64,000 bases of DNA from Escherichia coli (lineage in GTDB: Bacteria > Pseudomonadota > Gammaproteobacteria > Enterobacterales > Enterobacteriaceae). The stretch's first letter is position 1, and the number at the start of each line of letters is the position of its first letter. The notes under the pieces are model-generated. The model worked only from the letters and a program-made list of their open reading frames with translations. It had not been told where the DNA came from and made no database searches. Of this stretch, positions 8,361-9,644 are shown piece by piece. Location: assembly GCF_030013595.1 (NCBI RefSeq), contig NZ_CP122768.1; one strand, written 5' to 3'. The position numbers were made by a program, and so were the translations under genes.

Positions 8361-8849
8361 TTACCAGTCGAAAGTGGGCAGACCCGGCAGACATTCAGCG
8401 CAGGCATCCAGATGAATGAGACTGACGCCATAACGGCGAATGAGCGTGACGATCAGACGACGAAACGTTTTTGACAGGCCTAGGCGTTTAAGTCGCAGAA
8501 CCGGGTACGACCACGCATCGGTACGTAACAGATATCCGCTACCGGTAAAATGAATCCATTCTGATTCGCCGAAGTCATTCGTCTGATGTGACAGCGAGTA
8601 CAGCCAGGCGTTGTCCTTTGCCGTGATATGCGCGGTACTGCAGCGTATGCCGGTAAGGGCCGCAGATGGTGGCGTGCGCTCTGCTGATGTCCGGTCAGAT
8701 TCATCAACAACACGAAGGGAGTAACCGTTATCGCAGACCACGTTAATCAGTTCAGCGAGAGTAACACCATCGACGTCAACGACAATGCGCCCCATGTTCA
8801 GTGCCTGCACGTTAATGCTGTCGGCTTCCAGCGTCAGGGCCAGTTTCAT
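8361..8849 (-). CDS. Hypothetical protein downstream of cbtA (YeeW/DUF5983-like, 162 aa)
   Basis: ORF track; conserved position after cbtA; family from recall. Confidence 0.45.
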   Translation of the reverse strand: MKLALTLEADSINVQALNMGRIVVDVDGVTLAELINVVCDNGYSLRVVDESDRTSAERTPPSAALTGIRCSTAHITAKDNAWLYSLSHQTNDFGESEWIHFTGSGYLLRTDAWSYPVLRLKRLGLSKTFRRLIVTLIRRYGVSLIHLDACAECLPGLPTFDW

Positions 8850-9223
8850 TGTTTCGCCCCCGGATGTTTACCCAGGGTAATGTTATTTACCGTTCTGTAA
8901 TTGTCGCGGGCCATCAGGCCGGTTGCCCGGCGGGCCCGGAGGATATCAATACTGTTTATTAACTGAGAACGGGTACAGGCGCTGAATCCCGGCTGGTCGG
9001 TACGTACCAGTGCGTATTTTTCAACGAGAAAGTTCACCGCATCGCACAGTGAAATGCCTGCCTCAATATGCTGCTCAATCACACGTTCATCAGCGAACGG
9101 TGTGTCATTCAGTGTGAGGCCGTAATGCTGGTCCAACAGTCGGGTGAGCAGTGTCTGCCAGATGGTGACGGGAGACGGGCAGCGCGATGCCTCCCGTACG
9201 TGTGTGTCAGGTAATGTTTTCAT
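8846..9223 (-). CDS. cbtA: Type IV toxin-antitoxin system toxin CbtA (YeeV/YkfI/YpjF family)
   Basis: MKTLPDTHVREASRCPSPVTIWQ...LLDQHYGLTLNDTPFADE matches the CbtA family; ATG at 9223. Confidence 0.9.
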   Translation of the reverse strand: MKTLPDTHVREASRCPSPVTIWQTLLTRLLDQHYGLTLNDTPFADERVIEQHIEAGISLCDAVNFLVEKYALVRTDQPGFSACTRSQLINSIDILRARRATGLMARDNYRTVNNITLGKHPGAKQ

Positions 9224-9269
9224 CTTAAGTTCTCTGTAACTGGTAGTGCTAAAGGTGAGATATTCGGGG

Positions 9270-9644
9270 TTATGAGGTGGTTGCGGGTGCCAGTGTCGGA
9301 TAAACAGCCATATAAACGTAACCACAGCTGCCGAGGGTGTCGGCTTCGCAGGTCAGCCCTCTGGCATACAGCGTGACGGTATGCTGATGGCGGGGATTCA
9401 GTTCACCGCTGGTGAGCATGAGTTCCAGTTGTTTCATCAGCAGCGGAAAGGCCTGGTCCAGATGATACGCATCCGCGTCGCTAAACTGCCCCCTGATACC
9501 GGCGCGGTCGGCAAGGTAATGCAACTGATTGCCCTCCTGCACCAGACGTGCCCCGAAACAGGGCGTCACGGTGCAGGGGAGCCCCCACCAGGGGCGGTCG
9601 TTGTTGTTGTCGGGATGCGTTGTCCCGGGGTGTGTGTCTGACAC
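9270..9644 (-). CDS. cbeA: Type IV toxin-antitoxin system antitoxin CbeA (YeeU family)
   Basis: MSDTHPGTT...RPWWGLPCTVTPCFGARLVQEGN matches YeeU/CbeA; directly upstream of cbtA. Confidence 0.9.
   Translation of the reverse strand: MSDTHPGTTHPDNNNDRPWWGLPCTVTPCFGARLVQEGNQLHYLADRAGIRGQFSDADAYHLDQAFPLLMKQLELMLTSGELNPRHQHTVTLYARGLTCEADTLGSCGYVYMAVYPTLAPATTS

What the first reader, a model, noticed from the sequence alone, without database searches (positions are those of the whole stretch)
8846..9644. Intact CbtA/CbeA type IV toxin-antitoxin pair in the conserved island module
Both genes are full length with conserved N-termini. They sit in a module (GTPase, WYL regulator, DUF932, antirestriction, RadC-like, YeeT) that is well known, so the interest is mainly as a landmark of island organisation.
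Basis: established knowledge. Interest (0 to 1): 0.2.

Follow-up and report, generated by a model that had tools for sequence, protein, structure and literature searches.

The report
Ordinary intact CbtA/CbeA toxin-antitoxin pair
This is a complete copy of the well-known E. coli CbtA/CbeA cell-shape toxin and antitoxin, sitting in the standard CP4-type gene block at the end of a genomic island inserted at the selC tRNA gene; it is ordinary and already annotated in many genomes.

Summary
Both genes are on the minus strand. The antitoxin runs 9270-9644 (124 aa, GTG start as in K-12 cbeA). The toxin runs 8846-9223 (125 aa).

- **Family matches:** full-length Pfam hits to CbeA_antitoxin (8e-55) and CbtA_toxin (1.7e-63).
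- **Identity to K-12:** 88% to CbeA and 89% to CbtA, against 59-68% to YkfI/YafW and YpjF/YfjZ. There are no premature stops.
- **Selection:** dN/dS against K-12 is about 0.25.
- **Occurrence:** identical DNA is annotated as this pair in many E. coli genomes, and 4928 of 5426 complete genomes hold a related copy.
- **Flanking block:** GTPase, HTH-WYL, DUF932, antirestriction, RadC/JAB and YeeT are all verified.
- **Island end:** the block lies 1.8 kb from an island end marked by a 24-nt selC direct repeat (7048-7071).

Three nuances. The toxin N-terminus is not K-12-like: residues 6-20 differ and position 15 is Cys, not the K-12 MreB determinant Arg. This divergence is part of a swapped cassette covering the antitoxin tail, the spacer (46 vs 88 nt) and the toxin N-terminus. 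F65, the FtsZ determinant, is kept. The toxin stop overlaps (ATGA) a full-length DUF5983 gene.

The mechanism is inferred by homology only. Verdict: already known, low interest.

The parts
9270..9644 (-). cbeA/yeeU-family antitoxin gene, 124 aa, GTG start preceded by GAGGA
   Evidence: Pfam PF06154 8.2e-55. 88% identical to K-12 CbeA, which also starts with GTG. Matches solved YeeU structures 2INW at 1e-76 and 2H28 at 1.7e-73. RefSeq WP_001285415.1.
9224..9269 (-). 46-nt spacer between antitoxin stop and toxin start (88 nt in K-12); centre of the divergent cassette
8846..9223 (-). cbtA/yeeV-family toxin gene, 125 aa; F65 present, C15 (with R14) instead of K-12 R15
   Evidence: Pfam PF06755 1.7e-63. 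89% identical to K-12 CbtA. Codons 31-100 show 15 synonymous and 0 non-synonymous differences from K-12. RefSeq WP_000854735.1.
8361..8849 (-). full-length DUF5983 (YeeW-like) gene, 162 aa; its ATG overlaps the toxin stop (ATGA)
   Evidence: Pfam PF25638 and PF19419. Overlap read. The same 4-nt overlap occurs in K-12 cbtA/yeeW and in loci L009-L011.
8146..8343 (-). DUF957 gene (65 aa)
   Evidence: RefSeq annotation of identical DNA. No Pfam hit in my scan.
7207..8049 (-). DUF4942 gene, last gene of the island
   Evidence: Pfam PF13708 9e-70. PHROG hit to a family annotated as DNA methyltransferase.
7048..7071 (-). 24-nt direct repeat of the 3' end of tRNA-Sec (selC): island/backbone junction
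   Evidence: 100% match to selC bases 72-95. K-12 backbone homology runs from window 7071 down to 5364. A 24-bp selC repeat is reported for such islands in PMC6174562.
9724..9945 (-). yeeT (DUF987)
   Evidence: Pfam PF06174 9e-39; annotation.
10008..10499 (-). yeeS, RadC-like JAB domain protein (RefSeq start at 10484)
   Evidence: Pfam PF04002 3e-45.
10500..10979 (-). antirestriction protein gene
   Evidence: Pfam PF03230 2.4e-37.
11061..11879 (-). DUF932 gene
   Evidence: Pfam PF06067 6.6e-51.
11969..12202 (-). DUF905 gene
   Evidence: Pfam PF06006 1e-31.
13033..13713 (-). HTH + WYL domain regulator
   Evidence: Pfam HTH_11 and WYL; PADLOC WYL models.
13916..14800 (-). YeeP-like GTPase
   Evidence: Pfam MMR_HSR1 4.9e-15; RefSeq 'GTPase'.

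Best explanation
This is a functional-looking allele of the CbtA/CbeA (YeeV/YeeU) toxin-antitoxin pair. It is carried in the conserved CP4-44-like block at the integrase-distal end of a selC genomic island of E. coli. By homology to the K-12 pair, the 125-aa toxin binds FtsZ and very probably MreB. That blocks cell division and elongation and produces lemon-shaped cells when the toxin is in excess. The 124-aa antitoxin is made from the gene just upstream. It counteracts the toxin not by binding it but by binding and bundling FtsZ and MreB filaments, which is the type IV mechanism. The pair is probably co-transcribed with the upstream genes (antirestriction, radC-like, yeeT) and with the translationally coupled downstream DUF5983 gene. 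Shown here: the identity of both genes, their intactness, purifying selection, gene order and context. Inferred from literature on K-12 homologues: toxicity, the targets and the mode of neutralisation.
For: Full-length Pfam matches were found for both proteins. Identity to K-12 CbtA/CbeA is 88-89%, with no stops or frameshifts. dN/dS against K-12 is 0.23 for the toxin and 0.28 for the antitoxin. The toxin core (codons 31-100) shows 15 synonymous and 0 non-synonymous changes. F65 is required for FtsZ binding in CbtA, YkfI and YpjF (PMC5624674). It is present here and invariant in 48 full-length alleles. The antitoxin matches the solved YeeU structures 2INW and 2H28. Identical DNA carries this annotation in RefSeq genomes. 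[quoted passage not shown] The three K-12 antitoxins cross-neutralise all three toxins at about 60% identity, so an 88-89% identical allele is expected to behave alike. For co-transcription, no sigma-70-like site was found on the minus strand between yeeT and the antitoxin, and terminator-like hairpins lie only at 11948-11919 and 8102-8084. These are consensus scans only.
Against: Nothing was measured for this allele. Position 15 is Cys, and the R15C substitution in K-12 CbtA specifically abolished the MreB interaction. YpjF and YkfI are also naturally C15. YpjF binds MreB in the two-hybrid assay, while no YkfI-MreB interaction was detected. C15R changed nothing in either protein. A CbtA homologue from Erwinia that keeps both F65 and R15 bound neither target (PMC6521040), so residue conservation does not guarantee the target. 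The physiological role of the family and the trigger for toxin action remain unknown. Neither protein matches PADLOC defence models.
Confidence: 0.88

Rival explanations
1. This is the same family, but the allele is a division-only toxin. With Cys at position 15 and a re-written N-terminus, it has lost or weakened MreB binding and would give filaments rather than lemon-shaped cells.
For: R15C in K-12 CbtA abolished MreB binding and gave filaments. Here residues 6-20 differ from K-12 at 11 of 15 positions and position 15 is Cys. The first 30 codons hold 17.5 non-synonymous against 8.5 synonymous differences, while the core holds none.
Against: YkfI and YpjF are naturally C15 and still produce lemon-shaped cells. 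YpjF binds MreB in the two-hybrid assay, though YkfI gave no detectable MreB signal. C15R had no effect in either. C15 is the majority state among 48 full-length alleles, 33 Cys against 15 Arg.
Confidence: 0.15
2. Neutralisation involves direct, allele-matched recognition between the antitoxin C-terminal tail and the toxin N-terminus (type II-like), not only protection of the targets.
For: The only strongly divergent stretch between this locus and K-12 CP4-44 is one contiguous cassette. It covers the antitoxin's last ~7 codons, the spacer and the toxin's first ~20 codons, and it is flanked by >=95% identical DNA. The two ends travel together in most loci examined.
Against: The two ends are adjacent, so linkage explains the co-occurrence. 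Locus L010 combines a DTHVR...C toxin N-terminus with the K-12-type antitoxin tail and long spacer. Antitoxins cross-neutralise toxins that are only ~60% identical. No toxin-antitoxin interaction was found for the K-12 pair.
Confidence: 0.05
3. The unit is really three genes. The translationally coupled full-length DUF5983 protein would be a functional partner of the pair, for example a modulator or a second toxin/antitoxin component.
For: A 4-nt ATGA overlap joins the toxin stop and the DUF5983 start here, in K-12 and in loci L009-L011. DUF5983 is full length here (162 aa) but truncated in K-12 (64 aa).
Against: K-12 CbtA/CbeA works as a TA pair with a truncated yeeW. The ykfI/yafW and ypjF/yfjZ loci and locus L008 have no DUF5983 gene at all. 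DUF5983 has no known function, no solved relative and no defence-model match.
Confidence: 0.07
4. The ORFs are intact but are neutral hitch-hiking cargo of a decaying island, with no maintained function.
For: The island is mosaic and full of IS elements and pseudogenes. Decayed copies exist elsewhere: L011 has an intact toxin beside an antitoxin carrying a frameshift and a TGC-to-TGA nonsense codon.
Against: dN/dS is about 0.25 for both genes, with zero amino-acid changes across 70 core toxin codons despite 15 silent changes. The identical allele is kept in many unrelated strains.
Confidence: 0.05

Closest known systems
CbtA/CbeA (YeeV/YeeU) of cryptic prophage CP4-44, E. coli K-12
   Same: The gene order is the same: yeeS-yeeT-antitoxin-toxin-yeeW. 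The antitoxin uses a GTG start. The toxin stop overlaps the downstream gene by 4 nt. Protein identity is 88-89%, F65 is conserved and the toxin core (residues 31-100) is identical.
   Different: Toxin residues 6-20 are of another haplotype (DTHVREASRC..T vs VLPGQAASSR..E), with C15 instead of R15. The antitoxin tail is TLAPATTS rather than TPEMKN. The spacer is 46 nt rather than 88 nt. The downstream DUF5983 gene is full length (162 aa vs 64 aa). The location is a selC island rather than CP4-44.
YeeU of Shigella flexneri (PDB 2INW)
   Same: It is the closest solved relative of the antitoxin (1e-76). It shares the ...PAAPATT-type C-terminal tail, so it belongs to the same allele class.
   Different: There are a few substitutions. 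No toxin structure exists for comparison: the best PDB hit for the toxin has E = 0.13.
YkfI/YafW (CP4-6) and YpjF/YfjZ (CP4-57), E. coli K-12
   Same: They belong to the same Pfam families and have the same gene order. Their toxins also have C15 and F65. They cross-neutralise with CbeA.
   Different: Identity is only 59-68%. Their proteins are shorter (105-113 aa), lacking the antitoxin N-terminal extension and the toxin C-terminal tail. dS is saturated at >1.7. No DUF5983 gene lies downstream.
selC/pheU/pheV genomic islands of LEE-negative STEC (e.g. GIselC17584/1)
   Same: The islands are inserted at selC and end in a 24-bp selC direct repeat. They carry the yeeP-yeeS-yeeT-yeeU-yeeV block.
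   Different: The cargo differs. This island carries a type I R-M system and an IS1-bounded Tn21-like multiresistance transposon.

Membership tests
CbtA toxin family (Pfam PF06755) | Full-length match to the family profile above the curated cut-off | tested here: met
   212 bits against a cut-off of 25, covering profile positions 1-112/112.
CbtA toxin family (Pfam PF06755) | Phe65, required for FtsZ interaction in CbtA, YkfI and YpjF | tested here: met
   F65 is present and invariant in 48 alleles. Its role comes from PMC5624674.
K-12 CbtA orthologue specifically | Arg15, the MreB-specific determinant of K-12 CbtA | tested here: not met
   Position 15 is Cys, with Arg at 14. This is not a family-defining residue: YkfI and YpjF also have C15, and 33 of 48 alleles have Cys.
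CbtA toxin family (Pfam PF06755) | Growth arrest and loss of rod shape on overexpression | not testable with these tools
   This needs expression in E. coli.
CbeA/YeeU antitoxin family (Pfam PF06154) | Full-length match to the family profile, and sequence similarity to the proteins of the solved YeeU/YfjZ structures | tested here: met
   184 bits against a cut-off of 27. PDB sequence matches: 2INW 1e-76, 2H28 1.7e-73, 2EA9/2JN7 about 5e-43. The fold itself was not modelled or compared.
Two-gene toxin-antitoxin module | Antitoxin gene immediately upstream of the toxin gene, same strand, short spacer, both intact | tested here: met
   46-nt spacer, same strand, no stops.
Type IV toxin-antitoxin systems | The antitoxin does not bind the toxin but protects its targets (FtsZ/MreB bundling) | not testable with these tools
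   This is known only for K-12 CbeA. It would need binding and polymerisation assays.
CP4-44-like conserved island block | Co-linear neighbours: GTPase, WYL regulator, DUF932, antirestriction, RadC-like, DUF987, then the TA pair, then DUF5983/DUF957/DUF4942 | tested here: met
   Pfam matches and RefSeq annotation of the identical locus.
tRNA-selC integrated genomic island | A direct repeat of the tRNA 3' end at the distal junction; the tRNA and a P4-type integrase at the other end | tested here: inconclusive
   The 24-nt selC repeat is at 7048-7071 and the K-12 backbone lies beyond it. No tRNA is found in the window. selC and an integrase were seen only in the closest genome, NZ_CP178682.1, beyond the window end.

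The most novel reading that the evidence does not exclude
The contiguous swapped cassette (antitoxin C-terminal tail, spacer, first ~20 toxin codons including position 15) may define functionally distinct allele classes. The DTHVREASRC class would then differ from K-12 CbtA in how, or whether, it engages MreB. Alternatively, the antitoxin tail and toxin N-terminus may recognise each other, contrary to the type IV model.
Probability: 0.1. Interest if true: 0.35.

Novelty: already known. Interest (0 to 1): 0.08.

Why it matters
It matters little. The pair is a reliable landmark for the integrase-distal end of CP4/P4-type tRNA-inserted islands in E. coli, and it is correctly annotated in RefSeq. 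There are two modest points of value. First, intactness is not automatic, because decayed antitoxins next to intact toxins exist elsewhere. Second, the K-12 reference allele is not representative of the commonest toxin N-terminus, which is relevant to anyone extrapolating the R15/MreB result from K-12.

Tried and rejected
- **Second copy in the window:** tblastn with both proteins found none.
- **RNA elements on either strand:** Rfam at gathering threshold over the whole window found only the integron attI/aminoglycoside leader at 54868-54939. A permissive scan of 7000-15200 gave only a chance-level hit with E = 0.47.
- **Repeats in 6400-15200:** only short, chance-level matches.
- **Dedicated promoter upstream of the antitoxin:** no minus-strand sigma-70-like site between yeeT and the antitoxin. 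Total promoter-like sites did not exceed the shuffled expectation.
- **Anti-phage defence reading:** no PADLOC model matches the toxin, antitoxin, DUF5983, DUF957, DUF4942, YeeT or RadC-like protein.
- **NCBIfam:** no model matches either protein. RefSeq still names them, on a basis not established here.
- **PDB:** no solved relative for the toxin or for DUF5983.
- **Strict co-variation of antitoxin tail and toxin N-terminus:** rejected as evidence for direct recognition, because of a recombinant locus and physical linkage.
- **Not attempted:** structure prediction of a fused toxin-antitoxin, and large collection scans. They were judged not worth the cost for an already-known system.

Full report
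**Observation**

- The antitoxin gene runs 9644 to 9270. It has a GTG start preceded by GAGGA and encodes 124 aa.
- A 46-nt spacer follows.
- The toxin gene runs 9223 to 8846. It has an ATG start and encodes 125 aa.

The mechanical ORF list extends the toxin frame to a GTG at 9325, overlapping the antitoxin. Alignment to K-12 CbtA and the RefSeq annotation both place the start at 9223.

**Identity**

Pfam gives full-length matches: CbtA_toxin at 1.7e-63 and CbeA_antitoxin at 8.2e-55.

| Protein | vs CbtA/CbeA | vs YkfI/YafW | vs YpjF/YfjZ |
|---|---|---|---|
| Toxin | 89% | 59% | 64% |
| Antitoxin | 88% | 63% | 68% |

Both are full length with no stops (DNA alignment). K-12 cbeA also starts with GTG. 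The antitoxin matches the solved YeeU structures 2INW (Shigella, 1e-76) and 2H28. The toxin has no solved relative.

The 799 bases are 100% identical to loci in many E. coli chromosomes. There they are annotated 'TA system toxin CbtA family protein' (WP_000854735.1) and 'type IV toxin-antitoxin system YeeU family antitoxin' (WP_001285415.1). Of 5426 complete genomes, 4928 hold a related copy, with a median of three places per genome. The window has one copy.

**Evidence that the genes are maintained**

Against K-12, dN/dS is 0.23 for the toxin and 0.28 for the antitoxin. Toxin codons 31-100 carry 15 synonymous and no non-synonymous differences.

Intactness is not trivial. In one public contig (L011) an intact toxin sits next to an antitoxin with a 1-nt insertion and a TGC-to-TGA nonsense codon.

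**Context**

- GTPase, 13916-14800 (MMR_HSR1)
- HTH+WYL regulator, 13033-13713
- DUF905 and DUF932
- antirestriction protein
- RadC-like JAB protein
- YeeT (DUF987)

Downstream of the toxin lie a full-length DUF5983 gene, then DUF957 and DUF4942. The DUF5983 ATG overlaps the toxin stop as ATGA. K-12 yeeW is a 64-aa remnant of this gene.

The last 24 nt of tRNA-Sec (selC) occur at 7048-7071, and K-12 backbone homology (yicT remnant, setC, yicL, nlpA) runs from 7071 downwards. The block is therefore the integrase-distal end of a selC island. That agrees with published selC islands, which end in a 24-bp selC repeat and carry yeeP-yeeS-yeeT-yeeU-yeeV (PMC6174562). No tRNA lies in the window. In the closest genome, selC and a tyrosine integrase lie about 12 kb beyond the window end.

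**Mechanism (by homology)**

In K-12, CbtA blocks division and elongation through direct, separable interactions with FtsZ and MreB. F65S abolishes FtsZ binding and R15C abolishes MreB binding (PMC5624674). CbeA binds and bundles FtsZ and MreB filaments and does not bind the toxin, which defines type IV. [quoted passage not shown]

The window toxin keeps F65, which is invariant in 48 full-length alleles.

Promoter and terminator consensus scans give no dedicated promoter in front of the antitoxin. Terminator-like hairpins lie only after DUF905 and after DUF957. This suggests, weakly, a transcript running from DUF932 or the antirestriction gene through the TA pair to DUF957.

**What differs from K-12**

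The DNA alignment shows one strongly divergent contiguous cassette, flanked by >=95% identical sequence. It covers:
- the last ~7 antitoxin codons (TLAPATTS vs TPEMKN)
- the spacer (46 vs 88 nt)
- the first ~20 toxin codons (DTHVREASRC..T vs VLPGQAASSR..E)

Position 15 is Cys here, as in YkfI and YpjF. In those proteins C15R had no effect. YpjF binds MreB, while no YkfI-MreB interaction was detected.

Among 48 alleles the two N-terminal haplotypes dominate, with 33 Cys and 15 Arg at position 15. Mosaics exist. One locus (L010) combines the DTHVR..C N-terminus with the K-12-type tail and long spacer. The cassette is therefore best read as recombination among paralogous copies, not as evidence of matched recognition.

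An Erwinia homologue that keeps both F65 and R15 bound neither target. This is a reminder that targets cannot be read from residues alone.

**Negative searches**

No Rfam family, no significant repeats and no PADLOC defence model touches the pair.

**Verdict**

The observation and the interpretation are both confirmed. This is a known, correctly annotated, very common system, and it is of low interest beyond its use as an island landmark.

Noticed in passing
window 7048-7071: An exact 24-nt copy of the 3' end of tRNA-Sec (selC) marks the island/backbone junction. K-12 backbone (yicT/rhuM remnant, setC, yicL, nlpA) lies at lower coordinates. selC itself is not in the window.
   Followed up: yes
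window 8361-8849 (-): A full-length DUF5983 (YeeW-like) gene is translationally coupled to the toxin by an ATGA overlap. K-12 has only a 64-aa remnant. It has no known function, no solved relative and no defence-model hit.
   Followed up: partly
window ~9200-9290 (antitoxin tail, spacer, toxin N-terminus): A contiguous hypervariable cassette separates two allele classes: 46-nt vs 88-nt spacer, and C15 vs R15 in the toxin. Mosaic recombinants exist in public contigs.
   Followed up: partly
L011 900-1500 (GCA_032609095.1): An intact CbtA-family toxin gene lies next to an antitoxin gene with a frameshift and a TGC-to-TGA nonsense codon. This looks like an orphan toxin, presumably tolerated because paralogous antitoxins cross-neutralise.
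   Followed up: partly
window ~33546-40046 (-) and 40113-40610 (-): A type I restriction-modification system (hsdR, hsdS, hsdM) is present. A 165-aa protein annotated as a RelB/DinJ-family antitoxin lies directly upstream of it, with no toxin partner beside it. An IS1 follows.
   Followed up: no
window ~40824-63376: An IS1-bounded Tn21-like multiresistance region is inserted in the island. It comprises the mer operon (merR 41687 to merE ~45650), tniA/tniB, IS1326, and a class 1 integron (sul1, qacEdelta1, aadA1, dfrA1, intI1 at 55032-56045; Rfam attI/aminoglycoside leader at 54868-54939). It continues with IS26, the TnAs3 transposase, catA1 (61726-62385) and IS1. Relative to strain VTB97379v, the Tn21 transposase and TEM segment are missing.
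   Followed up: partly
window ~63783-64000: The start of the tia invasion outer-membrane protein gene runs off the window end. In the closest genome it is followed by a phosphoethanolamine transferase, a TPR protein, a tyrosine integrase and selC.
   Followed up: no
window ~21328-21768, ~26500-31000: The island carries an H-NS paralogue, a ProQ/FinO-family protein, MobI(A/C), RhuM-family genes and several IS fragments. These are read from the annotation of near-identical DNA.
   Followed up: no
window 12208-12885 (-): A 226-aa hypothetical protein lies between the WYL regulator and DUF905. It has a signal-peptide-like N-terminus and no Pfam, NCBIfam or PADLOC match.
   Followed up: no
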